A stretch of DNA of 32,075 bases from Malassezia furfur. Lineage: Eukaryota. Location: NCBI GenBank assembly GCA_052055015.1, contig JBQJIT010000089.1, one strand, 5' to 3'. Below are positions 135 through 32,075 of this stretch, one piece after another. The translations under genes and the position numbers were made by a program. The notes under the pieces were generated by a model. That model was not told the DNA's origin and made no database searches. It was given only the letters and a program-made list of their open reading frames with translations. The stretch's first letter is position 1. Every line of letters begins with the position of its first letter.

Positions 135-3045
135 ATGGCCGCGGGGGGCGTGCAGACGGCGAGTGCCGCGGCGTCGCGCACGTCGTCGCAGCGCTCACAG
201 CCTGAACGGCTCATGCCGCCGGCAAGTCCGGTGAGCAGCGCGCCGACGCACTCGCGCGCGTCGTCCTGGGCGTCGTCGTCGGCCGCGGCGTCGCCCGTCG
301 TGTCGCGCGATGCGGACGGCGAGATGATTTGCACCGCATGCAACGAACCGATCGACGACTCGGATGCGGGCAACGGCGCAGTGCGCATGTCCGAGTGCTT
401 CTGGCACATCGACTGCTTTACCTGCATCACCTGCGGGCGGCAGGTGCCGCTCGACCTGGACAACGTGCTGCTGGTCGGCACGCAGCCCATGTGCGGTGAG
501 TGCACCTTCAACTGCAGCGTGTGCAACCAGGTGATCGTGGACGAGGTCATCATGTGCGACCAGGACCCGTACCACACCGCCTGCTTCTGCTGCTCCTTCT
601 GCCGCGCTCCGATCGAAACCAACGTCTTCGCCAAGACGCCGGGCATGCTCGCGTGCGTCGCGTGCCAGGACCAGCTCGGCGATGCAGCCTCCTCGCGTGA
701 CTCGGGCCATGCGCGCACGCGCTCGCTCGCGTCCGACAGCGGCACGACGCCGTCGTCGGAGAGCAGCAGCGTGTCGGACGACGCACTGACGCACCGGCGC
801 TCGTCGTCGTTCAGCGCGTTCAGCTCGCACGCGTCGCCCAAACCCGCCGACGCGGGCATGCGCGACGCCAACCGGCTCTCGGTCGACGACCCCGCGTGGC
901 GACGCAGCTCATCGGGGACCGATTCAAGCTCGTTTGAGCTCGCGTACGACCGCCTCTCGGAGATGATCCAGATGGAGATCGTCCAGGCCTACTATGGCAT
1001 GCAGTCGCGCGCAGGCACGCCGATGCACACGCTCGACGACCACGCGCTGCGCAGCCGCGAAAGCCTGCCGGCGCTGCGCAAGCAGCTCGCACGCCGCGCG
1101 TCGCAGACCTGGGACGGCGACGCACGCGACGCACGGCATCGGCCGACGTCGTGCACCGACTCGGAGATCATGCGCTCGCTCTCACTGTACGACAGCGAAT
1201 TTGAGGCGCTGCTCGCGACGCCCGACTTTGCGCGGCGTGCGTCGGACCGCAGTGCGCTCCGTGCGTCGGCGGACACCGTCGACCAGCTCACCGACGAGAT
1301 CGTCGAGGCGCGCGACGCGGCGAGCCCGGCATGTGCCGATGACTCGCTGCGCACGTCGCCGACGGTGATGCGCGCGCGCGATGGGCCGTGGCGCCACGCG
1401 GACCCCGACGCGAGCGTGCTGCCCGACGACGTGCCGTCGCCGCGCACGCAGGCAGACGACACGCACGTGCCCCTCGACGAGGAGACGCTGCAGCTCAAGC
1501 GGCGCATTGCGCTCGCCGAGCTGCTCGCAATCGACGACGCGCGGGCGCCGCCGGGCGCATCCGAGCACGATTCGCCGTCGATCCGCAGCCGCGTTGAGCT
1601 CGTGCTCCACTCGCTGATGGCGCACCTCGACGCCGTGAAGCAGGAGTACACGCTCGAGCTGCAGGAGCTCGTTGCGCAGCAGCGCATCGTGCGCCAGGAG
1701 CTGCGGCCCATGGTGCAGCTGCGCACGGCGCTCCACCAGGACAACCAGCGGCTCGCGGCGCGTGCCGACGAGCTCCGTGCACACGTCGCGCAGCTCGAGA
1801 AGCGCTCGCGGCAGGCGCGCGCACACAAGCCGCTGCCCGAGGATGTGCCGGGTGCCGCTCGCGCGTCTTCGTCGCCGGCCGCGCCCAGGACGCCGACGGT
1901 GACCATGACGCCCGCCGAGGCGCCGCCGCCTGCACCGCGCGCGAGTGCGCCGGACCATGCGCGCCTCGATGCGTCGCTCCCGCCGCTTCCCGAGACGCGC
2001 AAGTTCCGGTGGATGAAGCCGCGCTTGCTGTCGAACCAGGAGCTGTCGATGCTCGGTGAGTCGCTGCTGCAGCCCGCGTTCGAGGTGAAGCGCACGCCGT
2101 CGCTCTTGTCACCGACTGTGCCGCCCAAAGGCGCGGGCAGCGACGTGGTCCACACGCACGGACACGCATTCCAGCCGACAAGCGTCTTGCGCCCATCGAC
2201 GCGGTGCATGGTGTGTACGCGCAACGTGTGGGGCCAGCAGGAGATGCGGTGCGGCACGTGCCAACAAGTGTCGCACACGCAGTGCCTCGCGCAGGTCGCG
2301 TCGGTGTGCCCCGGCACGCAGTCCGGCCCGCCGAGCTCGCCGTCGCTGCACTCGCGCACGCCCTCCGCCTCGGGCGCCAGCATGCTCGGCCGCCCGCTCG
2401 TGGAGCAGGCGCAGCGCGAGCAGCAGTCGGTGCCGCGCCTGATCGACTGGTGCGTCGCCGCCGTGGAGCAAAACGGCTTGAACGACGAGGGGCTCTACCG
2501 CAAGTCGGGCGGGATCCAGCAGCAGCGGCTCATCCTGCAGTACTTTGACAGCGGCCAGCCGTTCGACTTGTGCGACTTGCGCCAGTTTAACGACATTGGC
2601 GCCATCACGAGCGTGCTCAAGCACTACCTGCGCGAGCTGCCCGAGCCGCTCATTCCGCGCGACGCGCACGACGCCTTCCTCGAGTTTGGCGAGCAACTCG
2701 TGCACATGCACCATACCGTCGCGCTGAGCGCGATGCGCGGCCTGCTCGACCGCCTGCCGGATGCGCATCGTGCGACGCTCCGCCGGCTGTGTTTGCACCT
2801 CAAACGCGTCGACCAACACGCGAGCAAAGCGCGCATGTCGGCCCGCAACCTCGGACTGGTGTTCGGACGTAGGTACCCTGCCCACTCACCCAGCGACCCT
2901 CATGCGCGCCGCCAACCCCGCACAGGAGCTCGTGGAGACTAGCGCTTACGCACGCACCGTCGAATGTACGTGCCCAGCTTGGACTGACCCAGTCTTGATC
3001 ATCCACGCACCCACCTTGTTTATAGAACCTGTACATACGCTATGA
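135..3045 (+). CDS. Rho GTPase-activating protein with two N-terminal LIM domains, coiled coil, C1 zinc finger and C-terminal RhoGAP domain (Rga1/Rga2-like)
   Basis: LIM motifs (CTACNEPI...WHIDCFTCITC; CSVCNQVI...YHTACFCCSFC), C1 (HAFQPT...CMVC...CGTCQQVSHTQC), RhoGAP arginine finger GLYRKSG and MSARNLGLVFG. Introns 2869-2893 (25 nt) and 2966-2992 (27 nt) restore FGPTLMR and VEFLI. First in-frame ATG is 135 (alternative 213). Confidence 0.9.
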
Positions 3046-4031
3046 TGGGTGGATGGGCGTCGCAAGCACCTCGTCGCTCGCAGGCGCGCCGCGCGGCAGC
3101 ATCCAAAAGGCGGGTGCATCGGGCGACGGCTCGGACAACGCCGCCTCGCGCGCCGGAGATGGCGCACGCGCCGCGCCGTGCCGACGTCGCCCACGTCGCG
3201 CGGGCTGACGTGCCCACCGTGGGCCACTAGCCAGCTCGGGCGCGACATCCAGCGCATCGAAAAACGTGTGTACCACTGCATCGAGCGCGCCGGGTGGTGC
3301 CTCGTCACACGTCGGCAGTGCGTACCGGTGCCAGACGGACGCTGTGTCAGCCGCCGCACGTACCTGCACGGGCCATCGCAGGGTACGTGTCCTGCGCCAC
3401 GTACGCATCCAGATCGTTGCCACACAGCACCAGCCCACCAAGCCGCACTGCATCCCAGTTGGCACGCAGCAGCGCTTCGTACAGCGCGCGGGGGCATTTC
3501 GGCATGTACACAAGCGTCGGGCGGTCCAGGGTATATTCCCCGCACTGGTGAGCGACGCATACTCACCTGGTTCTCTTTGGGGAGCGCCATGTCCAGGCGC
3601 GCCACCAGTGCGCGGTCCTGCGCATCAAACAGCGGATCGTAGATCGTCACGGTGCACAGACCAGGGGGGTGTTGCTGCGTGAGCACGCGACGTACCTCGA
3701 GACGTGCACGAAACGCCAACACCATCGCTAGCTGGAACTGTGCCGCGGTAGTATCGAGCTTGCCGATACCTAGACACAACAAACACTCGGGAGGCTCCTT
3801 GCGCGCCCGCAACGCAGCAACGACGGCTGCGTCAGCCTACCACCTACCGTCCAAACGTGCACGCGCTCCGTCGTGCTCGAGCTGCGCTCGCTTCGCGTCA
3901 ATGTTCGCTACGAGGCTTTTGATGTGCGCTGTGCGCTCCTCGTCACTCTGTTCCGCCCACGTCTTGGGCACTGCATGCGCCGCACCGCGCCGCCTCCGGC
4001 GCCGTGAAGCCGTCCATACTTCTTCGCCCAT
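3040..4031 (-). CDS. SRR1 (Ber1-like) domain protein
   Basis: The spliced product contains LCLGIGKL...AQFQLA, IYDPLF, TLVYMPKCPRALYEALLRANW and LCGNDL, typical of SRR1. Introns 3827-3847 (21), 3675-3695 (21), 3545-3566 (22), 3342-3363 (22). ATG 4031, TAG 3040-3042. Confidence 0.82.
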
Positions 4032-4085: not shown

Positions 4086-5267
4086 ATGGCGTCGTCGATG
4101 CTCAGCCGGCTGCCTGGTGGGCCCCAAACTCTGATTGCGTTTGTGGCGATTCTGTTTGCCTATACGGTGCAGACAGAGTCGACGCAGCACATTCAGTACG
4201 CGCTTCACTTTGAAAAGCCGCTGCAGCTCTTGTATGTGACGCACAGCAGCTTTGTGCTGCTGCTGCCGCTGCAGCTCGTCGCGCTCCGTGTACTCAGAGG
4301 CAAGCCCGCGTCCCACTACCTCGGCCTGCTTCGACGCGACGTCCAGAAACAAATCGACCATGTGCGCGCTAGCTGGGGCTGGTCTCCTGCACAGACGTCC
4401 TCGTCGCTGTACGCGACGCTGGCGCTCGTTCTGTTTCTCCTCACGCTCGGGCTCACCATCCCGGCCGTGAGCTGGTTCATCGCGCTGCCGCTCACGACCA
4501 TGGCTAACGTCACGGCCATTTACAACACGTTCAGCATTTGGGCGCTCGTGTTCTCGGTGCTCTTTCTGAACGAGACGTGGATCTTTGTACGTGGCTAACG
4601 ACTCACTCAGCATCATGCGATTGCCGTGTTACTCGGCGTGGTGGGCGTGGTGATGGTTGCCTACGGCAGCACGCAGCCCGCTGCAAATGCAACCATGTCT
4701 GTGACACCGGTCGTGTCGCGTGCCCTGGTCGGGAACGGCATGGCCTTCCTCGGCGCGGTGTCGATGGCGGCATACGAAGTGGTATACAAGCTGATCGGCA
4801 CCGTGCCCGACCACGAGCACGCGGGCTTTCGACCGCTCGCAGCTTCAGAGGAGCACGCAGAGCGCGAGCAGGACCAGTCGCCCCAGGATGATGAGCCCTT
4901 GCCATTCGGCATGCATGCCATCGCCATGACGACGGGCATTGGGCTTATGACGCTGCTCACATTGTGGTCCATGCTTGTCGTCGCCGACTGGACAGGTTTC
5001 GAGCCGTTCGGACTGCCGCCGAATTGGAGGACCGTTGGTTGGATCGCGACGGGGGCGGCCTGCGGCGTGCTGTTCAATGCGTGTTTCTCCATCCTTTTGT
5101 CACTATGGGGTCCCGTGCTGGCGAGCATGTCGTGCCTACTCACCACGGTGCTGGTGCAACTCGTCGACCTGTTTTTGGGCGTACCGTTCACCTGGGTCAC
5201 ACTCACCGGCTGCGCCATCATTGCCGTGAGCTTCGTGGGCCTGTTGCCCTGGCAAAACAAGGACTAA
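4086..5267 (+). CDS. DMT/EamA-superfamily multi-pass membrane transporter (SLC35F-like)
   Basis: About 10 hydrophobic segments; motifs FEKPL.LLYVTHSSF, TAIYNTFSIWALVFSVLFLNE and GPVLASMSCLLT. One 24-nt intron at 4587-4610 (gtacgt...ctcactcag, containing an in-frame TAA) joins two same-frame ORFs. Confidence 0.85.
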
Positions 5268-5294: not shown

Positions 5295-6991
5295 CTACAG
5301 TACGTAGTCCTTGTTGTGCAAAACACATACCCCCTCAACGTGGCTGCGGTCAGTGTCTCACGTACTGGGTCTGCGGGAAAAAGTCGAAGCCGCGCACACT
5401 GTCGATCACGTACGAGGGGCACGCGTGCAGCAGGGCGCCCACATCGCGCGCTTGCGTCTGGGTGAGTAGGTAGGGCGTACGTGAACGTTGCACGAAACTG
5501 GGTGAGACTTGCTTACGTACCATAGACAATGTTTCTCGGGCGCAGCGCGACCAACTGGTCAAGGAATGGCTGGTCACAACCCCGGCGCGGCGGGTCAATC
5601 ACCACGGTCGTCTGCTCGGGCGGATACGCAATACTCGCGAAAATGTTTTCCGCACTGCCCGCCAGAAAGCGGGCGTTGGTAATCTTGTTCAGCGCGGCAT
5701 TGTGCTTGGCGCATTCGATGGAGCTGGCGCTAATCTCGACGCCAGCCACTTCGTGGAAAAGTGAGGCAAGCGACAATGCAAACAAGCCCGATCCACAGTA
5801 CGTGTCGACCAGGTACCGTGGCTTACCTTGGTCTTGCGCCAGTATTTGCTCTTTCACGTACTCAATCACCGACGGGATGATTGAACGGTTGTTCTGGAAA
5901 AAGGCGCCCGCAGGTGTCGAGAACTGAATGTCTCCCATCGTCTCGTACACTGTCGCATGATGGTCGGTCACCACGACCGATTCCTGCGCCTCGATGGTCT
6001 CTGGCTGCAAATCGGCCAGCGAATCACGCAGCAGGAGCGTTGCACCGTTCTTGTAGTGCTGGATATTGGCACGCACTTTGGCGTACTCACTTGGCATCTG
6101 CGCATTGATCGCGGGAGTGCCTATGGGGCACTCTTCAATGTCCATCACATGGCCAGTGTTGACGCTGTCAAAGCCGATCGGCACAGAAAGAGCACTCATA
6201 TCAACGTCTTCAGTCTTGTTCGCACGGCGTAGCGCGTGCGGCAGATCAAAGTGCGGCGTGAGCTTGGTGCGGTACTGCATCACTTTGGGCGAGCCTACCG
6301 TGGGCAGCACCTCGGGGACAAGCGACTTGTCCAGCTTAGAGAAGTGGGCAAAGGCTTTTTCCACAACACTCTTTTTTAGCTCCAGCTGGGTTGCATACGG
6401 GATCATTTGGTATTGACACCCGCCGCACTGGCCAAAGTAGCGGCATTGGACCAACTCGTCGTTCCGCATTGGACTGTGTCCACCCACACGCTCGACTAGC
6501 CGTGACTTGAAATACAGTCGTTCGGCCCCATACGGCACCACACGCACGATTTCACCTGGTAGACAAAAAGGTACCACAAGCACGCGGTCGCCTTCAGGTG
6601 AGCGAGCGAGACCGTCGCCATGCGAGCTGAGTCGTTCAATGGTCACTGTCACTTCTTCGCCAAAGGGTTTGACCCGGTCGAACTCCTGCTTCCGTTGCAG
6701 GATCGATTCAACCTGCTCTTTCCCCAGCATTTCAATAATATCAAACAGAATCGGCGGGTCGCCCTGCTTGCTGACCTGTTTCTGGTAGGCTTTCTGAAGG
6801 TAGTGAATCCGCTTCCGGTCGCGCTTAGCTGCTTGGCGGTCTTGCTTCGAGGGCGCTGCGCGAGGTCCGTCTTCCTGCACGCGCATCTTTTTCTCCATAG
6901 GTGCAGCGGGTGGGCTTGGCGGTGAACGAGGCGTTACCGACGTCATGATTCGGCGCACAATCAAAGGACCCCTCCGCAAACGAAATGGCAT
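5295..6991 (-). CDS. TRM2: tRNA (uracil-5-)-methyltransferase, TrmA/RumA family
   Basis: TRAM domain, CRYFGQCGGCQYQ, YRTKLTPHF, FFQNN, LVDTYCGSGLF, VIDPPRRG. Introns 5498-5520 (23), 5458-5480 (23) and 5344-5365 (22) restore YVSCNVHTQARD and FPQTHHVEGVCVL; stop TAG 5295-5297. In-frame ATGs at 7030, 6991 and 6946, so the start is uncertain. Confidence 0.93.
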
Positions 6992-7083
6992 GCACGCCTG
7001 GAGAAAAAGACGCTCCACTGCCGTGCACATTACTAACACAAAAATTTAGGCCGGATGTGGAGGTTCGCTCCCATCGTGTACCA

Positions 7084-8817
7084 ATGGAGGCTGCCAACGA
7101 TATTCTGGGGCAGGTGCTCGTGGTGAGCGGCGGAAGTGGCTACAATGATCTGGTTGGTGCCACACCCAATGCGATTTATGTTCTTCCAGGTACGTCTTTA
7201 TACCTCATGTCCAGTATCCGACAACGGCGGTGCGTAACAATTGTCATGAAGCGATGCTCACACCCCACACAGGGTCGTCTTCGGGTACGTACGTCGCCTC
7301 TGATCGCTAGAAATCATTCGTGTGCTAGGTATGCACGTTTCACTTACGCAGGCGGCCCATCTCTTGGTGATATCCGCTCCAGACTTGTCCGTCTCGCCGC
7401 GATCGCAATGACTCACCGGGATGAGTCATGCCTCAGCCAGCCCCATTCGCGTGAAGCACTTTACGCACTCTTGATGCATCGTCTTCCTCTCGAAGGATCA
7501 TCAAGGGCTATTAAGCAGGAATGGATGGATATCCTCGAAGGAAAGCATAAACTCTGGCGGGGCATCGATCCAGAGAAGCGCGAATGTGTTCGTGGTTTCT
7601 TGGTCCAGTTCGAGAGCGATGTACTACATCGTGCGCACCGAAACTTTAACTTCCGCGGAGGAAGTATCGGAAACTTTTTCTTGGTCGCGATGCAGCGATT
7701 TTTCCGCTCGATTCAAAGCGCGATTTTTTTGTTCTCAGCACTTGTCGGCATACAAGCGGCGCTACCAGATTGCCGCATTCTCCCAGCAATCAATACAAAC
7801 AGGACTGTAACTATTGCAGCTCTTCTGGAGAACGGCGAAAGTATCGTTGGCCAGTGCGAAATATCTCATCCAAGTGTTCGTCCTACTGCCAATGTCCAAG
7901 AGTTTATCTCGAGTCATGTGTCCACCCGCCAGCCCTCGCCCGAGGCGACTCCCTCCGCTTCTGTACACAACATTCAGCAGCTGGACACAATATCGCCTAG
8001 TCAGGCGCACAAACAGCTGTTATCGCGCTCAATCGGCGGGCAGGGTGGTGCTTCGGATGCCTCTAGTGCGCACAGTATGGACGACATTGAGTTCGGAGAC
8101 GACGATGAGGAACAGAATGAGCACTCGGACTCAGAAGAAGATCTTGGGAATCTTGCTTTCTCGAAACTAGACGAAAGTGCGGTTCTACAATCCCCTATTT
8201 CTCGTACGTCTTTCGCTAACACAGGCATCTATTATGTGAATGTACGCCATACGCTGACCCAAGTCCTTCCGCAACGAAGTGTTCCCGTCTCCCAACCCCG
8301 TTTACCTGCAAGCCCTCGAGCGGTGCCGCATGCTTGTGTACTCTTGGTGAGTGCTTGTCTAATACCAGCGGGTCTTTGTGGACAAGCATCATTCCTTGCT
8401 TAGCCTTGCGAGGCATCGCCTCTGCCATTGCGAATTCGCCCACCCTGAAACACAAAGTACTACTCCTCAACTCTTCCCATGATCGTGAAACCATGGGTAT
8501 GAATGGGATTGACTTTGTGCTGGCGATATGTCGGTCTCTGAACGAAATGGACAAGGACCCGAGTCACGCACAAGAAAGCGGCCATTATCCAATCCACAAA
8601 TTCATTACCCATGTCGTTTATGTGAGACAAGGCTCTATATTTGTGCCAGTGGAAGAGCTCGAGGTATGTTTCACCAGTTCTTATCCAGTCTCTGGGTGTG
8701 AAATGTGTGTCTGTTGACGCAGATTATTCTAAACCCCGTCTGAATGAACATCGTGAGTCCCTCTTTCCTTACACAGTCCTGAGGACCGCTCTCGAATCCA
8801 TTGCGCTCAATCGTTGA
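7084..8817 (+). CDS. CofD/UPF0052 (YvcK/GlmR-related, yeast YNL011C-like) family protein
   Basis: Motifs SGGSGYN, spliced VSDNGGSSSEIIRVLGGPSLGDIRSRL, GSIGNFFL, GQCEISHP, YSCGSLWTSIIPCL. Nine introns: 7190-7214, 7230-7272, 7285-7310, 7329-7351, 8204-8224, 8242-8263, 8347-8368, 8664-8688, 8753-8776. TGA 8815-8817. Confidence 0.9.
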
Positions 8818-8968
8818 ATCAAAGCAACCGTCGCACCATCGTTTCTAGTCACCTGCCTTTTTTCTTTTTGTAAAGCATAATTTCATGGAAAGCAACACGC
8901 ATAGTGTCTCAGAATAACATGGTTCACACATTTGCTTCGTACCTTTTCCTTTTAACAAATTACTATAT

Positions 8969-9750
8969 TTATGATTCAGATTTCTGTACCTCTTCACCCT
9001 GGTGTCGCATGAAACGAGCCCAGCCAATTTTGGCTTGCTGTCCCTGGATGTATAAGGGGTTTGAATGATAGTGGTGGATGGCTTCAGCCGCGGAAGCATG
9101 TGTTTTGAGAGTGACAAACGCAAAATGACGCTCCAGAAATAGTTGCGTTGAGACGACCGGTCCATAAGCCTCAAATTGTGAGGCAACTTCCTCCGATGAA
9201 GCCGAGCTCGGAAGATTGCCGACATAAACTGCTGTGATTTCTGAGGGGGAATGAGTATTAGACGTATGCCGAGTCGAGTTTGCTGGGCTTGAATTTTCTT
9301 CCACAAACCATAGCCTCGGGAACGGTGCGACTGTAAGTCCCAGACGACTCTTGCATCAAATAATGATGGGAAGATAGAGAATGCATGTACAAGGGCCGCA
9401 TCATTGATTTCAGGGGCTAGGTCTCCCACGAATACTGAAAATAGCCTGGGTCCTGCCAGACTGGCGGTAGTGGCCTCCGGTGAAGGCTGTTGAGAAGGGA
9501 ATGTTGCTAAAGATGCTTGTGACGAAGAAGAGTTGTGAGGCGATGCGAGTTGTGGGCTTCCAGCACCCCGGACCAGCCATGGCGGTAGTGGCTCACCCGA
9601 ATTGGCGCCCTGATGGGCCCAATTCAGACGCAGCGTGCGTCCGAACAGTCGATATCCATGGAAGATGGAGATCGCTTCTTCCGCACTTGCTAGGCGCGCA
9701 TACTCAACGAACCCATAGCCTGTTCCGGGCTGACCACATTTGGCTGACAT
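8969..9750 (-). CDS. PUB1/TIA-1-like RRM RNA-binding protein with truncated RRM1 and RRM2 (possibly degenerate or a pseudogene)
   Basis: GYGFVEY...LRLNWA (second half of RRM1), VFVGDLAPEIND...DARVVWDLQSHRSRGYG (first half of RRM2), then in another frame VYVGNLP...FAFVTLKTH...KIGWA (RRM3). Joining them needs either a 68-nt intron at 9241-9308 or a 1-nt frameshift near 9305. Confidence 0.6.
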
Positions 9751-9831
9751 GTCCAATTTTTCACGCGTAATAATATGTTTACGCAGCTCCCGAGCTAGAT
9801 GCTTACACGTTTCTACGCGCCCAATTTGGAA

Positions 9832-10501
9832 ATGGAGGGGTCCAACTATGGTGCATCCCTAGTGCTCCGATTGCAGGCGCTGATTGCCTTAGTGGTAGCC
9901 GCCAATGGCCACGACCATGAACTAGATACCAAGAATGTGCTCGTGCTGCGATACAAGGCACTGCAAGACACTATTGCGCGAGCCTCAGAGTCCCATCCTT
10001 CTTTGAAAATGGCACTTGCGAAATGTATGGGTTGCAGGCGTAACTGACCACCTAGCCTCTCAATGGAACTCCAACCTAGACAAAGTTCTATCAGCACAGG
10101 AAGGAGCGAGTCGTGCGGACCCTTACGTCCAACTTGCGTTTGCGCTGGATGGGGCCGACGATATGCGCGCTTTCCTGCAATACATGGAGCAGTGTGAAGC
10201 CCTCGATCACCAAGGGGCTACCTGTACAGGCTCACTGGAAGGTTTGTTCTTGGATGTAACCCAGATGTCACCGCCATGCAAGACCGTGTCGGTACCTGTG
10301 CGCAAGCGCAAGAGACTCTCTCGACGGAGTTCGAACAAATCAGACGAAAGACTGTTGGCGTGCTTGAAAGCTACGGGAGCTATGTAAGCTGTTATGCATT
10401 GCTCACCCCGCCAGGTCGATCAGTTATCGCGCATTTTCCTGAGTCTAGACCATACCATTGGCCAACTCGAGAGACGGCTTCCACGTGGCGAATGTACATA
10501 A
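9832..10501 (+). CDS. Dynactin subunit p24/p22 (Ro10/DCTN3-like) helical protein
   Basis: N-terminal LVLRLQALIALV and C-terminal YGSYVDQLSRIFLSLDHTIGQLE resemble fungal Ro10/p24. Introns 10025-10055 (31), 10242-10264 (23) and 10384-10414 (31) give a continuous frame to TAA 10499-10501. Alternative ATG at 9799. Confidence 0.6.
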
Positions 10502-10537
10502 TGCATAGTGAGTGTACCATTTGTACAATTACACAGA

Positions 10538-11252
10538 TCACGGACGCGCCGCGCTTTCTACAGGTGCAGCTGAGGTATTACGAACAGATAGGTCAGCATC
10601 GTCTTGGGACGGAGCCGCAACCTGGTCGACAACAGCGTCGCGTGGTGGGTTCATCGCTTCGAGCTGCTTCATAGCCGTCGTGAAAAAAGGGCGTAGCTCG
10701 GCAATCTCCATAGTTGAAATATTGGTCATCTAGATTAGCCTGAGGAGACATACCTCGAGATGGTTCCGGTTGATCATTTGGAGACCGGATGTAATTTTGC
10801 TTTGGCGTGCCTCGCGCAGATCTTTTAGGAGCGCGCGAACTCGTGCAGATGAAGGAATGTCTTCAGCGGCACTAGGGTCAAGACAAGCACGTACTGCTCC
10901 AGCAACAGCTTAGACACTGCAACGTAATGTAGGGGCAAAGGGGCAAAGGGTAATGACTGAGTTTCCTGACGAACAAATTCGGAAAGTGCATCTGTGTTTA
11001 AATCATTCACGTACCAACCGTGAGCCAGTCAGGTGGAATGATCACACATTTTCGTTTCTTCCGTAGCGACAGTGCTAACCACAACGGAACCTCTGCATGA
11101 GAAGGAGGCCGAAAGGGGCCATATGTCCCACTCAGTAACCGGAATCTGTCGACAGTTACGAGTGGAAGAATCTGAATTTGCGTTTCACTCGAAGCCACGA
11201 ACTCCATCTCAGTAGGCAAGATGCCGTACTGCGTAGCCGCTGGTAGCGCCAT
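10538..11252 (-). CDS. PSF2: GINS complex subunit Psf2
   Basis: EMEFVAS...YGPFRPP...VPLWLALSLRKKRKCVIIPPDWL, LLKDLREARQSKI and NISTMEIAELRPFF. Introns 10992-11014 (23), 10872-10894 (23), 10730-10753 (24). Confidence 0.95.
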
Positions 11253-11317
11253 GGTCGTCTGCTAGATGTGGGGTGGAGGTCCTCTGATCGGGGTATCGGG
11301 CTTGAGCACGGCCCTCC

Positions 11318-12314
11318 ATGTTGGAGGTAGTGAACCACAGGGTCTCAGACCTGTGGGGAAAGCTCCGCGAACGGCTAGAGCAGCTGACTCCTGCTCAACG
11401 AGCGGCAGTTGTTGCTCTCGGAACTCTCTATGTGGCTGTACTCATTGGTCTAATGTTTATAGGTGGGGATTATGTCTTTCAAGGTACGTTGCGCTCTAAC
11501 GCAGTTCTTGCACATATTGCCACCTGGATGCGGGTATCAAGGCTCCGTGCCCTCGTGCTTTATGCAGGAATGACACTTGCTGCAATCCCCCCCATTTCTG
11601 GATTTGGAACATGCGTTACAATGGCAGGAATGGCCTACGCAAGTGTACAGCCATCGGAACCACATTCCTGGGCGCATGTTTTTTGGCGTCTAATGGAAGG
11701 ATGGATGGTTGCATCAGGAGGACTTATCTTGAGCGCATCTATCAGTTTTATTGCGTTGCGTACCCTGCTCAATCGTCTGGATGGACGTTGGGGCATTCTC
11801 ACCAATATCAAAAGCGACCGCCGATTCCGCGCTCTGCAGCAGGCTGTTCGAGAGCGGGGTCTTTGGATGGCTGTGCTTGCAAGGTATGTATCTTTCTAAT
11901 GCAGATTTTGCCCATTACCTTACTGTTGTACGTATACTAACTCATCCAGATACCAATCTTCTCCTCGCGGTAAGTGCTTAGCTGACGCAGTCACTCGACT
12001 CTCTCTCCCTCCTTGTGTATATTGTGTCCGCAATCCTATCTGCCCCACGTTTACTGATCCATGTGTTTATGGGTGCAAAGCTTTACGAACTTATTGACAG
12101 TGATGTCCGTGCGCACCAAGACACGGCGACGAAGGTTCGGAACATTATTTCGGTCGTAATCGGACTCTTGCTTGGCATTGGAAGCAGTTGGCTTATTTGG
12201 AAAGAGACTAGCCGTATTTTGGACCTAGAGAATGACGAGCCACTGCTGGAAGAAGGCGAAGAAGAATGGAGAACAGAACACGAAGAAGGGCAATTCGTGC
12301 TCGAAAATGCGTAA
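11318..12314 (+). CDS. TVP38: TVP38/TMEM64-like SNARE-associated (VTT/DedA) membrane protein
   Basis: IPPISGFGT...GMAY and spliced LARFCPLPYCYTNLLLAS...PRLLIHVFMG, the DedA/VTT signature. Introns 11484-11504 (21), 11884-11904 (21), 11928-11949 (22), 11970-11990 (21). Confidence 0.85.
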
Positions 12315-13121: not shown

Positions 13122-13221
13122 CGTCGAGCCACCTTGGCAAGAGTTATTTAGTCAGCACACGGTGTCCTTCGCTTCTGCAGCCCAAAACCCCTCACGGCCC
13201 AACGGCCCTGGCTCATGCAAG

Positions 13222-15177: not shown

Positions 15178-15278
15178 ATCCACCTCCACATAGATATTGT
15201 ACCAACATGTTGAGTTTGGTTCTATCTGGGGAACGTGTTTTCGTTGTCTCGCACTAGCATCTGTCGACGCTCACGCTG

Positions 15279-19704: not shown

Positions 19705-20532
19705 ATGTCGAATAATGGTGCACTCCAGCTTCCCCAAGCGCAGTCCAAGTCGTCTGTAGACGCATCCTCGCAGAACAGCAAAGCGCTGGCGCTGCCGAGC
19801 CAGGCGGATGGGGAAAAGTCCCAGAGTACGGAGGAGAAAAAGGAGGAGGATGTGAAGATTCCTCCGTCTGTGCATGCACCGATCACGGAGCAGATGCTCT
19901 CGAGCATGCACGGTATTGTTCCGACGTTACAGTAAGTTGGCCTTTGCCCTCCCTTGGTGGTCGGACAGTATGCTAATGGCTTAGAAACATTGTCGCGACC
20001 GTGAATCTCGAGGCGCGTCTGGATTTGAAAACCATTGCGCTCCATGCTCGCAATGCCGAGTACAATCCTAAGGTATGCATGCACCAGGTTAACACGGTAG
20101 CGTTTTGCTGCGGTCATTATGCGTATTCGTGAGCCGAAGACCACGGCCCTCATTTTTGCGTCAGGAAAAATGGTGATCACGGGTGCGAAGAGCGAGGAGG
20201 ACAGTCGTTTGGCCAGCCGCAAGTATGCACGCATCATTCAGAAGCTTGGGTTTGAGGCGCGTTTCAGCGAGTTCAAGATCCAAAACATTGTGGGATCGTG
20301 CGATGTACGCTTCCCTATTCGCCTCGAGGGTCTGGCGTACAGCCACGGCGTGTACTCTTCATACGAGCCAGAGTTGTTCCCTGGCTTGATTTACCGCATG
20401 GTCAAGCCCAAGGTCGTGCTCCTCATTTTTGTTTCGGGAAAAATTGTTCTTACGGGCGCAAAAGTGCGCGAGGAGATCTATACCGCCTTCAACCTTATTC
20501 TCCCCGTGCTTTCCGAATTCCGAAAACCCTAA
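19705..20532 (+). CDS. SPT15: TATA-binding protein
   Basis: [15 protein letters not shown]...[30 protein letters not shown]...[13 protein letters not shown]. Introns 19932-19984 (53) and 20073-20100 (28). Confidence 0.98.
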
Positions 20533-24983: not shown

Positions 24984-27393
24984 ATGAGCGCACACGCAGC
25001 GAGCGCGGTTGCGCCCGTGCGGCGCGCCGACGACCCCGCGGCGCGGTCCGTGGCGCCTGCACGCGCCCCGCTGGAGCGTACGTGGCACCCACTCACCCGC
25101 AGCGCTGTATTTGGAGCCGGGCCCGCTAAACCGCCTATATCTCTCGGTAAGCTCGGGGATTCCGTCGCAGGTCGCCTGGGCGCTCGCGCGCCTCGCGCTG
25201 TACACGCAGCAGCTGGGCGACCGCTTCCAACTGGCCGACTACCCTGGGCTGGATGAGGCGCTTGTGCGCCTTGTGCGCCGCCTGACGCTCGCGCTGCAAG
25301 GGGCGCCGCGCGCCGACTGGGACGAGGACGTGCCCGACGTGACTGCGAGCAACCTGCGCATCGATCAAGGCATCGGTGCCCCCGGCGAGAACGGCGGGAT
25401 GGACCTCGCCCAAACGCATGTCGCGTTTGCGCGCATGCGTGTGCCCGAAACGCCGCCCGCGTCGTTCGCGCCGCAGCAGGTTGCACGCGACGCAACATTG
25501 TTCCAGCACGCGGCGGGCGCCGTCCTCGTTTTGCGCAACGTGGTCCTGAGCACTGCGAATGCCGCCCAGCTTACTGTGGTGCCTGGCGTGCTGCAGGTCG
25601 TCTACGAACTAGCGCATGCGACGATCGAGGCGCCCGCAGCGCTCCGGGGGGGCGCGTGGGCAGACGTACGCGGCAATGCGCTCGACATTCTCGAGGCAGT
25701 CGCGCCGCGCATCGTGCTGAGCGAGTGGGTGCGTACCACCTACGGCCAGCGCGTGCCGCCCGTGGCGCGCACCGCGCCGACGCGCACCGAGGACCAGGTG
25801 TTTGCGCTGCTACACACCCTCCTGCACACCACGCGCGACCGTGCGCTGCTGTTGGCGAGCTTGCGGTGCCTGCGCGCGATCGCAATGAACGAGGCCAACG
25901 TGCCGCAGCTTGTTGACGCCACGCCGCAGCTCGAGCCGACGCAGCTCGGGCTCACGGCGCGGTGTGTTGCGCTGCTGCCTCTCACGCAGGACCCAGAGCT
26001 GCTCGAGGCGGCGGTCGATCTGTTGTACCAGATCGCGGCGACGGGCGAGAATGCGCTGCTCCTCGGCACGCTCATGCTCGCCGACGTGTGCGACGTGGGC
26101 TACGGCGCGGGCCTTGCGCGCCGTGCGCTGCACGAGGCGGAGCCGCCGGCCGACGCGCCCACCGACACCTCGCTGGCGCGTGCGGTTGTGGCGTACCTCG
26201 CGCGCAACGTCGACCTCGGCAAGACAGTGTGGGAGCGCGACTCAGCGATGAGCGCCAACACGAGCGCTGCGTGGGCGCCCCACGTCCCGAGCGCTGCGCG
26301 GACACGCCGCGAGCGCGAGCGCGAGCGGCGCTTGCGCAAGGAGCACGCCACGCCGCAGGAACGGGCCAAGTGGAAGGAGCTGACGCGCGACGAGCTCGAG
26401 CGGCTCCGGCGGCTGGATGAGCCAATGCGCGGCATTGAATGGTGCGTGTGCGACTGACACAGGATGCAGCTGCTGTTTGAGCGCGACCCCCATGGTGAGG
26501 TGACGCAGATGGAGTTCTGGATCGCGTACCGGGACCAGTTTACGCCGATCGCGGCCGAGGGCGGCGTCGCGCTGCAGCCTGCGGCGAACCTCATCCGCAA
26601 CGTGTCGCAGACCTTCCCGGGGGCCGCCGCCGTGGTCATCCCGTCGACGATGGGCGCGCAGCCGCGCTTCATCATCCGCGGCATCTCGGTGCGCGACCGT
26701 AGTACCCCGCGCATCGAGTGCGCGTGGGAGGCGTGCCCGGCGCCGCACGTCGGCGACTGGGACGCCGTGCGCGAGCACCTTGCCGTGCATGCCCAGGCGG
26801 CGCGCGACGGGCAGTGCCGCTGGCGCTCGTGTGCGTACGCCATCGATCCACGCGACCCACACCGTGCTGCGCGGCTGTACGCGCACGCGCTAACACACAC
26901 GCCGCGCGACACGCCGGTCCACACCGCGCAGCCAGCCGAGGGCACACAGGAGAACCCGGGCGTGATTACGTTTACCGTCGAGCGCACGCCGTCGGTGCCC
27001 AACGCGACGCCGGGCGAGGCGCCGCTGCCGTGCGGCGTCGCATTCCTCTCGGCGCTCGTACTGCGCTTTGTGGCGCGCGCAGCGCACAACGTGCTCAAAA
27101 GTGCGGGGCAGGGGTGCCCGCCACAGACGTACGGCGGTGCACAGGCGGCCACCGCGCAGCCGGGCGACCGCGACGAGCGGTTCGGGTGCCCGGTGCCGCG
27201 CTCCGTGCAGGACGCCATGCAGGACGCCGCACAGCAGGCATCGGCGCTCACGCCGCGGCACATGGCCGCTGCGACAACGGTCATGGAGGCCCTGGCGCTC
27301 GCAGAAGAGGGTATGGTACAAAGCTCGTTGCGGAACGACATCCTATGTCGTCTACTCAACGATATTCTCGTGGCCATCCGACCCGTAGCGTAG
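24984..27393 (+). CDS. RSC9: RSC chromatin-remodelling complex subunit Rsc9-like (armadillo region, RFX-like winged helix, C2H2 fingers)
   Basis: EPGPLNRLYLSVSSGIPSQVAWALARL, WMQLLFERDPHGEVTQMEFWIAYRDQF...AANLIRNVSQTFPGA...RFIIRGI, CAWEAC...HLAVH, CRWRSC...HALTH. Introns 25078-25102 (25) and 26442-26462 (21). Confidence 0.83.
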
Positions 27394-29980: not shown

Positions 29981-30039
29981 GGAGGCGGAAACGGAAGACC
30001 CACGTGACGCCCCGCGCGCGCGACGCGGTGGAGGGCGTC

Positions 30040-32075
30040 ATGATCGCCGAGGCGTGGGCGGCCGCCGAGCGCGCGTGCCGCGCCGAGCATGCCGCCGGCG
30101 TGGACGAAGTAGGTGTCTCGCTCACCCAGGCATGGGCGTGTGTGGAGCGCACATTTGATCCGAGTGCGCCGGCATCGGCGGACGTGCGCGAGAGTGGTAC
30201 GTCGTCCACTCACGCAGCGTCGGTGCAGCACGCCGTGGACCAGGTCCACACGCACCTCGACGGCCTCGACGCATGGTACTTGGATGCATGCGACCGGGTG
30301 TTTGCTGACTTCTGCCATGAGATGCTTGCGCCGCTGCACGAGGCAGGCGCGCACGACGCCGTGCCGGGTGCCATCGACGCGTGCTATACGTGGATGTGCA
30401 CGCGGCACGCGCTGCTTGGTACCGACCGCGGCGAGCTGGGCGTTCCCGGTGCAAGCGCCGCTTTTCTGCTGCAGTGCCAGACGAACTTTACACTCGCGAT
30501 GCGCCCCGCGGCACTCGAGACGCTCGCAGCCTACTTTGCGCACGGACTGTCAAGTGCGCACAACCACATTGTCGCCGACGCCGAATGCATCCAGGTGGCC
30601 GCGCAGCTGCGTGCACTTGGGCTCGCGACCTACGTGCAGGGAGTCTTGACAACCACCGCGACGCAGTTCCTCGAGGCCGCCGTGCGCCGCGAGACGCACG
30701 GCGCGGCGGCGCACGCATTGGAACATGCGGCGTTCCCCCGGATGCACGACCTGCTGCAGACGCAGCTTGTGCCTGCGCTCGAGGCGCTGCTCGAGGCACG
30801 CCCCGGCGGCGTACACCTCATGGACGAGCCGCTGCGCGATGCGTGGGACACGAGCGTTTCCCACGTGCACGACGATGCGCTGCATGCGAACCCCGAGCAG
30901 GCGTCGCTGTACCTGCGCCTCGAGTACCGGCTCTCGCGCGCGCTGGGCCACGCGCGGTACGTGTTCCCCTGACGCAGCCTTGCGCAGCTGTTTGACATTG
31001 TCGGCACCTACCCACGGAGCCGCGCGGCGCTGAGCGATCTGATGGTACGCCGCATCCTCACCCAGGTGTGGCTCGAAAAGTCGGACGAGCGTGTGGCTGT
31101 CGCCGACGTGTTCCTGGCGACGCTGCATGCGCGCCTGCTGCACCCCGGCGTGGACACGCACGCGATCTTGGTGTACTACGTCAATATTGTGTACGCGCTG
31201 CGGCTCGTCGATACCTCGGGCGTGATTCTGTCCAAGGTGCTGCCGCCCGTGCAGCGGTACCTGCGTACGCGTCCCGACATCATCCCCGCGGTCGTCAATG
31301 CGCTGCTGGGCGACGATGACGCATTTGCGCTGCTGCGCATGGAGCTCGCGAGTGCGACCGCCTCGCTAAGCCGCAGCGCACGGCTCCAGGAGGACGATGC
31401 GGCGCAGGCGCGGCCCGAGTACTGGATGGATCCGACGTGGACGCCGCGTCCGGTCGATGCAGGCCCCGAGTACAGCCAGATGCGCACGCGCGACGTGATC
31501 GACTTGCTGGTGTCCATTTTTGACGACCACAATGGGTTCATCCATGCGCTCGAGGAGCATACCGCGCAGCAGCTCGTGCGCACGCAGGACTACGATACGA
31601 CGCGCGTGGTACGTCTACCCACTGATACAGCAACGCAACAACGATATCTTCAAGCGGCGATTTGGCGAGAGCAGTTTGCACCACTGCGACGTGATGCTCG
31701 CCGACATTGCCGCGTCACAGACGAGCGACGCGGCATTCCACGCGGCGCGCGACGCGGCGCTGCACCGGACGCCCGCGCCTGCCGTGCACGCGCTGGTCAT
31801 CTCGCGCCAATTCTGGCCGGACATTGATACGCGCGCGTTTACGCTGCCGCGGCGCATGGCCGAGGCGCTCGAGGCGTATGCGGCACACTATGCCGCGGCG
31901 CAGCGCAAGCGGCGCGTCAAGTGGCTGCCGTACCTCGGCACGGTCGACGTCGAGGTCGAGATGAACGACGGGCGGCGCGTGCGTGCGTCGGTGATGCCGG
32001 TCGAGGCGGCGGTCGCCGAGCTCGTCGCGGGGATGGGCGTGCCCGCCGAGGCGGCCGAGGCGGCGGCCGTGGTCG
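30040..32075 (+). CDS. APC2: Anaphase-promoting complex subunit 2 (cullin-like), 3' end outside the window
   Basis: LFDIVGTYP, RLLHPGVDT..IL..Y, LRLVDTSGVIL...YLRTRPD, WTPRPVDAGP, RFGESSLHHCDVMLADI, VISRQFWP. Introns 30957-30977, 31045-31065 and 31609-31630, plus probable in-frame 21-nt introns 30109-30129 and 30197-30217. Confidence 0.93.

What the first reader, a model, noticed from the sequence alone, without database searches (positions are those of the whole stretch)
2869..31630. Ultra-short spliceosomal introns with a sharp 21-nt floor and branch point next to the acceptor
Seen: 42 manually predicted GT-AG introns, most needed to restore conserved protein motifs. Lengths: 21 nt x11, 22 x9, 23 x8, 24 x3, 25 x4, 26, 27, 28, 31 x2, 43, 53 (median 23, none below 21). 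The shortest follow roughly GTRYGY-N6-CTVAY-NCAG, e.g. gtaggtggtaggctgacgcag (3827-3847, minus), gtgcgtgtgcgactgacacag (26442-26462), gtacgtgttcccctgacgcag (30957-30977). This puts the branch A at position 16, 5 nt from the intron end, with no polypyrimidine tract. Known: most fungal introns are at least 45-50 nt, and sizes near 20-25 nt are typical of ciliates, nucleomorphs and microsporidia; Malassezia introns are known to be short. Inference: a 16-nt lariat loop leaves little room for U1 and U2 to bind at once, implying a modified spliceosome or assembly route in a tractable yeast.
Basis: partly seen in the sequence, partly recalled or inferred. Interest (0 to 1): 0.78.

Follow-up and report, generated by a model that had tools for sequence, protein, structure and literature searches.

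The report
Ultra-short introns in a Malassezia yeast
This stretch of a Malassezia skin-yeast chromosome holds about forty real introns only 21 to 31 bases long; tiny introns are a known trait of the genus, and here their lower size limit and signal spacing are measured.

Summary
The window is Malassezia furfur or a very close relative. It carries 42 candidate GT-AG introns on the coding strands of 14 of its 19 genes (median 23 nt, minimum 21).

- **Support:** 34 of the 42 are backed by comparison with other species, Pfam or solved structures. The other 8 rest on reading frame alone, and one of these is doubtful.
- **Not chance:** the 21-nt pattern occurs 11 times against 0.04 expected.
- **The floor:** the limit lies in the spacing from 5' splice site to branch point. 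The branch A never sits before intron position 16, apart from the doubtful case, and it usually lies 5 nt from the intron end.
- **Relatives:** two syntenic Malassezia-like relatives from metagenomes have introns at the same codon positions but slightly longer, with a minimum of 23 nt.

The best reading is ordinary U2-type introns shrunk to a physical minimum. Very short Malassezia introns are already published (M. sympodialis mean 30 bp, M. restricta median 30). I found no description of the exact spacing rule.

Other lineages with equally short introns keep a normal spliceosome, so the inference is not required. Interest is moderate.

The parts
2869..2893 (+). 25-nt intron in the LIM-C1-RhoGAP gene
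   Evidence: It splits the motif VFG|PTL. Retention gives a premature stop. Relative A has a 24-nt intron at the same codon, and relative B encodes the joined peptide without a break.
2966..2992 (+). 27-nt intron in the RhoGAP gene, in frame and free of stops
   Evidence: Retention would add 9 aa. Relative A has a 27-nt intron at the same codon, and relative B reads VEFLIEH without a break.
3827..3847 (-). 21-nt intron in the SRR1-like gene
   Evidence: Pattern hit. Retention gives a stop 3 codons later. The joined peptide aligns without a gap to relative A, though conservation there is low.
3675..3695 (-). 21-nt intron in the SRR1-like gene, in frame and free of stops
   Evidence: The Pfam SRR1 profile runs 5-46 and then 52-78 across it. 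Relative A has a 29-nt intron at the same codon.
3545..3566 (-). 22-nt intron in the SRR1-like gene
   Evidence: Only the 22-nt donor keeps the frame; the 18-nt alternative does not. The Pfam SRR1 profile runs 52-78 and then 83-127 across it. Relative A has a 24-nt intron at the same codon.
3342..3363 (-). 22-nt intron in the SRR1-like gene
   Evidence: Only the 22-nt choice keeps the frame. Retention gives a premature stop. Both relatives encode the joined peptide without a break.
4587..4610 (+). 24-nt intron in the EamA-type transporter gene
   Evidence: It carries an in-frame stop. Both relatives encode the joined peptide without a break.
5498..5520 (-). 23-nt intron in the TRM2-like tRNA methyltransferase gene
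   Evidence: The 23-nt donor, not the 19-nt one, gives IVYVSCNVH. Both relatives encode that peptide without a break.
5458..5480 (-). 23-nt intron in the TRM2-like gene, following a 17-nt micro-exon
   Evidence: Retention gives a premature stop. The relatives have introns of 26 and 27 nt at the same codon.
5344..5365 (-). 22-nt intron in the TRM2-like gene
   Evidence: The 22-nt choice restores FFPQT|HHVEG. The relatives have introns of 29 and 32 nt at the same codon.
7190..7214 (+). 25-nt intron in the CofD/UPF0052-like gene
   Evidence: Called by 29 of 34 homologue alignments. It restores YVLPV|SDNGG. The relatives have introns of 25 and 26 nt.
7230..7272 (+). 43-nt intron in the CofD-like gene
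   Evidence: Called by 28 of 34 homologue alignments. The relatives have introns of 44 and 54 nt.
7285..7310 (+). 26-nt intron in the CofD-like gene
   Evidence: Called by 29 of 34 homologue alignments. The relatives have introns of 25 and 27 nt.
7329..7351 (+). 23-nt intron in the CofD-like gene, following an 18-nt micro-exon
   Evidence: Called by 30 of 34 homologue alignments. Relative A has a 23-nt intron there, and relative B reads through without a break.
8204..8224 (+). 21-nt intron in the CofD-like gene, in frame and free of stops
   Evidence: Called by 30 of 34 homologue alignments. The relatives have introns of 24 and 23 nt at the same codon. The public M. furfur model P0003 keeps it as coding sequence.
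8242..8263 (+). 22-nt intron in the CofD-like gene, following a 17-nt micro-exon
   Evidence: Called by 33 of 34 homologue alignments. The relatives have introns of 23 and 25 nt.
8347..8368 (+). 22-nt intron in the CofD-like gene
   Evidence: Called by 33 of 34 homologue alignments, and it restores VYS|CGSLWTS. Both relatives read through without a break.
8664..8688 (+). 25-nt intron in the CofD-like gene
   Evidence: Called by 28 of 34 homologue alignments. Both relatives read through without a break.
8753..8776 (+). 24-nt intron in the CofD-like gene, in frame and free of stops
   Evidence: Called by 6 of 34 homologue alignments; most alignments end before this point. The relatives have introns of 24 and 28 nt.
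9241..9263 (-). Doubtful 23-nt intron in a truncated RRM-protein gene
   Evidence: It joins two open frames. The donor GTCTAA is weak and the only branch box is at position 12. There is no support from other species.
10025..10055 (+). 31-nt intron in a gene of unknown family (9799-10498)
   Evidence: Reading-frame logic and motif only. No Pfam family matches the gene.
10192..10241 (+). 50-nt intron in the same unknown gene
Evidence: It is needed to move from one open frame to the next.
10384..10414 (+). 31-nt intron in the same unknown gene
   Evidence: Reading-frame logic and motif only.
10992..11014 (-). 23-nt intron in the GINS PSF2 gene, with no YTNAY box
   Evidence: Retention gives a stop. 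The relatives have introns of 26 and 37 nt at the same codon. PSF2_N lies in exon 1.
10872..10894 (-). 23-nt intron in the PSF2 gene
   Evidence: Retention gives a stop. Relative A has a 30-nt intron there, and relative B reads through without a break.
10730..10753 (-). 24-nt intron in the PSF2 gene
   Evidence: It carries an in-frame stop. Both relatives read through without a break.
11484..11504 (+). 21-nt intron in the TVP38-like membrane-protein gene, in frame and free of stops
   Evidence: Called by 8 homologue alignments, and another shows a 7-aa gap there. Relative A has a 24-nt intron at the same codon, and relative B reads through without a break.
11884..11904 (+). 21-nt intron in the TVP38-like gene
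   Evidence: Called by 21 homologue alignments. It carries an in-frame stop. Both relatives encode ARFCPLPY without a break.
11928..11949 (+). 22-nt intron in the TVP38-like gene, following a 23-nt micro-exon
   Evidence: Called by 18 homologue alignments. Both relatives read through without a break.
11970..11990 (+). 21-nt intron in the TVP38-like gene, following a 20-nt micro-exon
   Evidence: Called by 18 homologue alignments. It carries an in-frame stop. Both relatives read through without a break.
13300..13322 (+). 23-nt intron in the RNA polymerase III RPC82 gene
   Evidence: Exon 1 ends at position 16 of the Pfam HTH_9 profile. The relatives have introns of 31 and 38 nt at the same codon.
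14748..14769 (+). 22-nt intron in the RPC82 gene
   Evidence: The Pfam POLR3C_WHD profile runs 2-30 and then 31-77 across it. Relative A has a 23-nt intron there, and relative B reads through without a break.
19272..19294 (-). 23-nt intron in the heat-shock factor gene
   Evidence: The downstream exon starts at position 8 of the Pfam HSF_DNA-bind profile. Relative A has a 27-nt intron at the same codon, and relative B reads FLNKLRSMVDDP without a break.
19932..19984 (+). 53-nt intron in the TATA-binding protein gene
   Evidence: Retention gives a stop. Relative B has a 43-nt intron at the same codon.
20073..20100 (+). 28-nt intron in the TATA-binding protein gene
   Evidence: Exon 2 aligns to residues 9-37 and exon 3 to residues 38-179 of the solved yeast TBP chain 1tbp_A.
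25078..25102 (+). 25-nt intron in gene 24984-27393 (no family found)
   Evidence: Frame and motif only; retention gives a premature stop.
26442..26462 (+). 21-nt intron in the same gene
   Evidence: Pattern hit. It carries an in-frame stop. There is no support from other species.
30109..30129 (+). 21-nt intron in the APC2 gene, in frame and free of stops; weaker support
   Evidence: Pattern hit. Called by 2 of 20 orthologue alignments, and others show a gap there.
30197..30217 (+). 21-nt intron in the APC2 gene, in frame and free of stops; weaker support
   Evidence: Pattern hit. Called by 3 of 20 orthologue alignments, and others show gaps of 7-9 aa.
30957..30977 (+). 21-nt intron in the APC2 gene
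   Evidence: Called by all 18 orthologues that reach it. It carries an in-frame stop.
31045..31065 (+). 21-nt intron in the APC2 gene, in frame and free of stops
   Evidence: Called by all 18 orthologues that reach it. The Pfam TPR_ANAPC2 profile runs 22-41 and then 45-111 across it.
31609..31630 (+). 22-nt intron in the APC2 gene
   Evidence: Called by 19 of 20 orthologue alignments. Retention gives a premature stop.

Best explanation
These are ordinary U2-type GT-AG spliceosomal introns of a Malassezia furfur-like yeast that have been shortened to a physical minimum.

**What each intron contains.** Little more than three signals. There is a strong donor, GTACGT in 18 of 42. There is a branch box, CTNAY. 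The acceptor is the first YAG after the branch box.

**Inferred mechanism.** The donor pairs with U1 and later with U6. The branch box pairs with U2. The acceptor is picked by its closeness to the branch point, so no polypyrimidine tract is needed.

**The lower limit.** It is set by spacing, not by total length. The branch A needs at least 15 nt between itself and the donor G (A at position 16), and usually 5 nt to the intron end, which gives 21.

**Shown versus inferred.** Shown: the introns interrupt conserved proteins, their removal restores those proteins, and related species have the same introns at other lengths. Inferred: the snRNA pairings, the lariat, and that the limit is steric.
For: **Organism.** A CofD exon is 98% identical to an M. 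furfur CBS14141 protein.

**Signal statistics.**
- The 21-nt pattern has 11 hits against 0.04 expected.
- There is a sharp onset at length 21 and at branch-A position 16.
- Composition of the 42: all are GT-AG, 39 have GTRNGY donors, 26 of 41 have 5 nt after the branch A, and the A is at position 16 in 14.

**Effect of retention.** 27 introns are not multiples of 3, and 7 of the 15 that are multiples of 3 carry an in-frame stop.

**Protein evidence.**
- Nine CofD introns are called by 6-33 of 34 mostly non-Malassezia homologues, eight of them by 28-33. They restore PVSDNGGSSSEIIRVLGGPS across exons of 15, 12 and 18 nt.
- TVP38 introns are called by 8-21 homologue alignments.
- Three APC2 introns are called by 18 of 18, 18 of 18 and 19 of 20 orthologues.
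- TBP exons abut at residues 37 and 38 of a solved TBP.
- Pfam profiles run on across introns in SRR1, RPC82, APC2 and HSF.

**Relatives.**
- Two fully syntenic relatives were found.
- 20 of the 31 window introns examined have an intron at the same codon in at least one relative.
- Ten of the other eleven sites are encoded without a break or a gap. The eleventh, in TBP, is not covered by the loci but is confirmed by the solved structure.
- Orthologous lengths differ, for example 21 against 24 and 23. That rules out conserved coding sequence.

**Literature.**
- M. sympodialis has 5350 introns with mean length 30 bp, 99% with RNA-seq support (PMC5389616, Table 2, passages read).
- M. restricta has a median of 30 (PMC9241646, Table 1).
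Against: No RNA evidence for this organism could be obtained. Excision, lariats and branch sites are therefore all inferred.

Eight introns are multiples of 3 and free of stops. They could be partly or wholly retained without breaking the protein. A public M. furfur gene model does keep 8204-8224 as coding sequence.

Eight of the 42 have frame and motif support only. One of these (9241-9263) breaks the spacing rule.

The 'floor' rests on 42 introns in 32 kb.
Confidence: 0.85

Rival explanations
1. One reading: the donor and branch box lie so close together (5 nt apart) that U1 and U2 snRNPs cannot sit on the intron together. On this view Malassezia would have a changed spliceosome, or a different order of assembly.
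For: The branch A sits at position 16 in 14 of 42 introns, with a sharp onset there. That is what a steric limit would look like. An abstract seen only in a search listing (PMC11291888) says that critically short donor-to-branch distances block U1/U2 assembly on a human intron. The relatives stop at branch position 17 and length 23, so the limit may have moved in this lineage.
Against: I could test nothing about the spliceosome, because no genome is held and the window has no snRNA gene. Myxozoans, with median introns of 22-27 bp, keep a conserved U2 branch-binding region and U2AF, and functional spliceosomes are reported for Stentor with its 15-16 bp introns (PMC13644364, passages). The donor and branch boxes here are close to the usual fungal consensus, which suggests the usual snRNA pairings.
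Confidence: 0.15
2. Some of the 21-27 nt segments that are multiples of 3 and free of stops are not introns, or are only sometimes spliced. They would then stay in the mRNA as 7-9 extra codons.
For: Eight such segments exist: 2966, 3675, 8204, 8753, 11484, 30109, 30197 and 31045. The public M. furfur model P0003 translates 8204-8224, and P0116 translates the 30109 segment. Two look-alikes, 7854-7874 and 28152-28172, match parts of the motif and yet look like coding sequence.
Against: Six of the eight have an intron of a different length at the same codon in a relative, or are missing precisely in homologues. All eight carry the full donor, branch and acceptor grammar (five of them match the strict 21-nt pattern).
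Confidence: 0.1
3. The 21-nt floor is a sampling effect. Across the whole genome there would be a tail of shorter introns, so no hard limit exists.
For: Only 42 introns were sampled. Introns without a recognisable branch box, such as 10992-11014, would be missed by motif scans. Other lineages splice 15-16 nt introns (PMC13644364).
Against: All gene models close without needing a shorter intron. Across 9183 aligned residues, the 3-9 aa insertions relative to the two relatives lie in variable regions. Reading the inserted peptides, I saw none that looked like a retained short intron, but I did not check the underlying DNA.
Confidence: 0.2

Closest known systems
Annotated introns of Malassezia sympodialis ATCC 42132 (Zhu et al. 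2017, PMC5389616; passages and Table 2 read)
   Same: Same genus. It has 5350 introns with mean length 30 bp, 99% supported by RNA-seq. These are canonical splice dinucleotides in compact genes.
   Different: This window comes from an M. furfur-like species with a mode at 21 nt. The passages I read give no minimum length, branch position or signal spacing. Its one held supplement had nothing on intron size.
Malassezia restricta KCTC 27527 and M. arunalokei annotations (PMC6473144, PMC9241646; passages read)
   Same: The M. restricta median intron is 30 nt. The annotators had to lower the gene finders' minimum intron length to 15-20 nt.
   Different: Those papers give summary statistics only. 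Here the lengths are shorter (median 23) and the spacing rule is worked out.
Ultra-short introns of myxozoans and dicyemids (PMC13644364, passages read)
   Same: Median lengths are 22-27 bp, there is no polypyrimidine tract, and the putative branch A lies just upstream of the AG. The spliceosome is judged to be conventional.
   Different: There the branch signal is only a weak run of A. Here it is a strong CTNAY box at a fixed distance. That paper's list of lineages with introns under 30 bp does not mention Malassezia.
Ciliate ultra-short introns: Paramecium about 25 bp (PMC5014332, abstract in the listing only); Stentor 15-16 bp (as cited in PMC13644364)
   Same: A narrow length distribution pressed against a lower limit.
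   Different: Ciliates reach shorter lengths. I recall from memory, not from any call, that introns that are multiples of 3 and free of stops are depleted in Paramecium. Here 15 of 42 are multiples of 3 and 8 of those have no stop, so no such depletion is visible.
Microsporidian short introns (named in PMC13644364; PMC6349667 seen as an abstract in the listing only)
   Same: A fungal-related lineage with a reduced genome and introns under 30 nt.
   Different: Microsporidia have very few introns and splice them poorly, with a median efficiency of about 25% as quoted in PMC13644364. Here there are about 2 introns per gene, in conserved genes.

Membership tests
U2-type (major) GT-AG spliceosomal introns | GT at the 5' end and AG at the 3' end | tested here: met
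   All 42.
U2-type (major) GT-AG spliceosomal introns | Extended donor consensus able to pair with U1 and U6 (GTRNGY) | tested here: met
   39 of 42 match. GTACGT occurs 18 times. The exceptions are GTCTAA, GTATGG and GTGTGA. The pairing itself is inferred.
U2-type (major) GT-AG spliceosomal introns | Branch box YTNAY upstream of the acceptor | tested here: met
   41 of 42 have one. In 40 of these the A is at position 16 or later and 4-12 nt from the intron end. The 21-nt pattern is enriched, with 11 hits against 0.04 expected.
U2-type (major) GT-AG spliceosomal introns | Removal restores an open frame that encodes the conserved protein | tested here: met
   34 of 42 are supported by homologue alignments, Pfam or PDB continuity, or syntenic relatives. 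The other 8 rest on frame only.
U2-type (major) GT-AG spliceosomal introns | Polypyrimidine tract between branch and acceptor | tested here: not met
   Only 4-12 nt, usually 5, follow the branch A. This feature is also weak or missing in many fungal and other short introns, so it does not exclude membership.
U2-type (major) GT-AG spliceosomal introns | Excision from the transcript as a lariat | not testable with these tools
Ultra-short intron class (median under 30 nt) known from ciliates, microsporidia, myxozoans and dicyemids | Median length under 30 nt with a narrow distribution against a floor | tested here: met
   Median 23, minimum 21, and 36 of 42 are 21-26 nt.
Ultra-short intron class (median under 30 nt) | Depletion of introns that are multiples of 3 and free of stops (the Paramecium-type signature, recalled from memory) | tested here: not met
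   15 of 42 are multiples of 3, and 8 of those 15 have no in-frame stop. The sample is small.
U12-type (minor) introns | AT-AC ends or a GTATCCTT-type donor with a TCCTTAAC branch box (recalled consensus) | tested here: not met
   No donor hexamer of that kind occurs among the 42.

The most novel reading that the evidence does not exclude
The M. furfur lineage may have driven its introns to a true mechanical limit of the spliceosome: branch A at position 16 and 5 nt to the acceptor. This limit is lower than in its relatives (position 17, length 23).

At this spacing U1 and the branch-site machinery could not occupy the intron together. Splicing would then have to proceed by a hand-off, or by a U1-light route.

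Because Malassezia can be grown and genetically transformed, it would be a yeast model for a question so far studied only in ciliates and parasites.

The orthologous introns being shorter in 23 of 30 comparisons (my tally from the table) would then mark active selection or mutational pressure towards that limit.
Probability: 0.15. Interest if true: 0.7.

Novelty: new member of a known kind. Interest (0 to 1): 0.4.

Why it matters
Very short introns are rare outside ciliates and a few parasites. A 2026 survey of introns under 30 bp does not list Malassezia at all (PMC13644364). The genus is cultivable and can be transformed (PMC7426719, describes its genetic tools).

A clear rule, with the branch A no closer than position 16 and the acceptor 5 nt later, gives a simple handle for testing how little RNA a normal spliceosome needs.

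There is also a practical point. In-frame 21-nt introns and exons of 12-23 nt defeat gene finders. For one gene, the public M. furfur model keeps one intron as coding sequence, skips an 18-nt exon and picks a wrong acceptor, which drops conserved residues.

The finding does not show a new kind of splicing.

Tried and rejected
- The whole genome is not held.
I retried neither.

**Gene modelling.**
- A first dynamic-programming gene finder that maximised ORF length chose several donors of 18-19 nt. Frame and protein sense rejected these in favour of 22-23 nt.
- An open-frame filter alone was useless in this GC-rich DNA, passing thousands of candidates.

**Homologue searches.**
- The word-indexed search for TVP38 gave one hit. 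The exhaustive search then gave 36.
- The APC2 search returned only Malassezia proteins. The two N-terminal APC2 introns therefore stay weakly supported.

**Look-alikes left out.**
- 7854-7874 matches part of the motif but encodes the conserved GQCEISHP. None of 34 alignments calls it an intron.
- 28152-28172 has donor GTACGA and a branch A at position 14. It lies in the Vps5/BAR domain, where Pfam leaves 12 profile positions for about 8 residues. It remains undecided, and I lean against it being an intron.
- 25962-25989 (28 nt) would break the open frame.

**Other checks that found nothing.**
- Rfam and tRNA scans of the window.
- Earlier notes of this scan.

**Literature.**
- Searches for a description of Malassezia splice-signal spacing and the one held supplement of PMC5389616 gave none.
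- One search did not require the word Malassezia and was of little use.
- A paper outside the held library could still describe the rule.

Full report
**What the window is.** The 32 kb are a gene-dense piece of a basidiomycete yeast chromosome.
- A CofD-family exon is 98% identical to a protein of Malassezia furfur CBS14141. The next best hits are other Malassezia species and then other Ustilaginomycotina.
- Pfam on exon translations names most of the 19 genes: LIM-C1-RhoGAP, SRR1, an EamA transporter, a TRM2-like methyltransferase, CofD/UPF0052, an RRM protein, GINS PSF2, a TVP38-like protein, cytochrome c haem lyase, RPC82, HSF, TBP, OXA1, a vezatin-like protein, an RmlD plus PX-BAR reading frame, and APC2.
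Everything below therefore rests on sequence, homology and comparison.

**Checking the observation.**
- I rebuilt the gene models independently and reached 42 candidate introns between 2869 and 31630. Lengths are 21 x11, 22 x8, 23 x8, 24 x3, 25 x4, 26, 27, 28, 31 x2, 43, 50 and 53, with median 23 and minimum 21.
- The pattern GTRNGY-N6-CTNAY-NYAG occurs 11 times against 0.04 expected from shuffles. All hits lie on the coding strand.
- Scanning the same grammar over total lengths 15-39 gives 0-1 hits at each of 15-20, nested inside longer introns, and then 11 at 21.
- A two-way scan shows that the step lies in the distance from donor to branch. Hits with the branch A at positions 10-15 are at background level (7 hits in 48 cells, about 0.1 expected per cell). 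There are 14 at position 16.

**Are they real introns?**
- Retaining any of 27 would shift the frame. Seven more carry an in-frame stop. Eight are multiples of 3 with no stop.
- I wrote a protein-to-genome spliced aligner that requires only GT-AG ends and uses no motif information. I ran it with homologues fetched from the public protein collections.
- **CofD gene:** 34 homologues were used, mostly from other genera. Nine introns are called by 6 to 33 of the 34, and eight of them by 28-33. The alignments rebuild the conserved N-terminal motif across exons of only 15, 12 and 18 nt.
- **TVP38-like gene:** three introns of 21, 22 and 21 nt, separated by exons of 23 and 20 nt, are called by 18-21 alignments. 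A fourth is called by 8.
- **APC2:** three introns are called by 18 of 18, 18 of 18 and 19 of 20 Malassezia orthologues. Two N-terminal ones are supported only weakly.
- **TBP:** exon 2 aligns to residues 9-37 and exon 3 to residues 38-179 of a solved yeast TBP, so the 28-nt intron joins them exactly.
- **Pfam:** profiles run on across introns in SRR1, RPC82, APC2 and HSF.

**Independent evidence from relatives.**
- One scan of metagenome contigs returned five loci from two Malassezia-like species, with GC of 45-49% over the CofD-gene stretches. Species A is L001-L003 and species B is L004-L005.
- The loci hold the same genes in the same order and orientation, from RhoGAP to HSF or TBP.
- I aligned the window's spliced proteins to them and examined 31 window introns. 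Of these, 20 have an intron at the same codon in at least one relative.
- At ten of the other eleven sites the relatives encode the joined peptide without a break or a gap. The eleventh, in TBP, is not covered by the loci but is settled by the solved structure.
- Orthologous introns differ in length. For example, the in-frame 21-nt intron 8204-8224 corresponds to introns of 24 and 23 nt. These segments therefore cannot be conserved coding sequence.
- Counting from the table, the window's intron is shorter in 23 of 30 pairs, equal in 4 and longer in 3.
- The relatives' minimum is 23 nt and their earliest branch A is at position 17 (25 and 12 introns).
- In all, 34 of the 42 have support beyond frame and motif. 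Eight do not: two in gene 24984-27393, two at the APC2 N-terminus, three in an unknown gene at 9799-10498, and one doubtful case in the RRM gene.

**Anatomy.**
- The donor is GTACGT in 18 introns and fits GTRNGY in 39 of 42.
- The branch box is CTCAC (13), CTGAC (10), CTAAT (5) or another YTNAY variant.
- The last four bases are mostly CCAG, GCAG or ACAG.
- The branch A is 5 nt from the intron end in 26 of 41 introns, and at position 16 in 14. These 14 comprise all eleven 21-nt introns and three 22-nt ones.
- In a 21-nt intron only 5 nt separate the donor hexamer from the branch box. There is no room for a polypyrimidine tract.

**How it most likely works.** These are normal major-type introns reduced to their three signals.
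- The strong, near-invariant donor and branch boxes probably make up for the missing tract.
- The acceptor is the first YAG after the branch.
- The sharp onset at position 16 looks like a spacing limit in the spliceosome core. This step is my inference.
- It is also not required. Myxozoans, with introns of similar length, keep a conserved U2 branch-binding region and U2AF, and Stentor, with shorter introns, is reported to have a functional spliceosome (PMC13644364, passages).

**What is already known.**
- Malassezia genome papers state that introns are very short (PMC7426719, passage).
- M. sympodialis has 5350 introns with mean length 30 bp, 99% with RNA-seq support (PMC5389616, Table 2).
- M. 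restricta has a median of 30, and its annotators had to lower the minimum-intron settings to 15-20 (PMC9241646 and PMC6473144).
- I found no description of a 21-nt floor or of branch spacing in any of these passages. Searches combining Malassezia with intron, spliceosome, branch-point and length terms gave none either. Nor did the one held supplement of the M. sympodialis paper.
- A 2026 survey of introns under 30 bp lists ciliates, microsporidia, dicyemids and myxozoans, but not Malassezia.
- That M. sympodialis study mapped reads with STAR. As I recall, STAR's default minimum intron is 21 nt. A floor seen in such annotations would be suspect, whereas the floor seen here comes from sequence alone.

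**Verdict.** The introns are real by comparative evidence. The phenomenon is a known trait of the genus, taken a little further in this species. The exact spacing rule appears not to be in print, and the modified-spliceosome idea is untested speculation. Interest is moderate.

Noticed in passing
7215-7229, 7273-7284, 7311-7328, 8225-8241; 5481-5497; 11905-11927, 11950-11969: There are micro-exons of 15, 12, 18 and 17 nt in the CofD gene, 17 nt in TRM2, and 23 and 20 nt in the TVP38-like gene. They sit between ultra-short introns and each encodes conserved residues.
   Followed up: yes
7084-8814, compared with protein P0003: The public M. furfur CBS14141 model of the CofD-like gene differs from the homology-supported structure in three ways. 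It translates the 21-nt intron 8204-8224. It merges 7285-7351 into one 67-nt intron, skipping an 18-nt exon. It uses acceptor 8386 instead of 8368, which loses the conserved GSLWTS.
   Followed up: yes
about 5500-15800: A 10-kb island of about 50% GC lies between flanks of 60-72% GC, with no deep AT trough. Third-codon-position GC falls from about 0.8-0.9 to about 0.5. It holds 22 of the 42 introns, and their branch boxes shift towards CTAAT and CTTAY. The cause is unknown.
   Followed up: partly
8972-9750 (-): The RRM-protein gene looks decayed. The first RRM starts in the middle of the domain, at the GYGFVEY motif. The second ends right after RGYG, with no room for the rest of the domain. 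The relatives align at only 32% identity.
   Followed up: partly
27575-29980 (-): One uninterrupted reading frame of about 800 codons holds an RmlD-type reductase domain followed by PX and Vps5/BAR domains. It may be a fusion, or two genes with no stop codon between them.
   Followed up: no
window against L003 and L005: Intron turnover within the genus is high. Ten of the 31 window introns examined have no counterpart in either relative at sites the relatives cover, and an eleventh (TBP, codon 105) is not covered by the loci. The relatives have at least 7 introns that the window lacks: TRM2 codon 465, CofD codon 418, RPC82 codons 146, 313 and 332, HSF codon 91, and HSF codon 45 (a 129-nt alignment gap that may not be a real intron). 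Whether these are gains or losses cannot be told from three species.
   Followed up: partly
7854-7874 (+) and 28152-28172 (-): Two 21-nt segments resemble the intron grammar but lie in coding sequence. The first encodes the conserved GQCEISHP. The second lies in the BAR domain, with its branch A at position 14.
   Followed up: partly
all 42 introns: The commonest donor is GTACGT, with C at intron position 4 in 26 of 42. Whether the U1 snRNA of this species has a matching change could not be checked.
   Followed up: no
30109-30129, compared with protein P0116: A 98%-identical protein from a close strain translates this segment as a different 7-residue peptide. Only the last three residues are shared, and they correspond to the branch box and acceptor. 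That is the pattern expected of an intron read through by a gene caller. I did not see the DNA of that strain.
   Followed up: no
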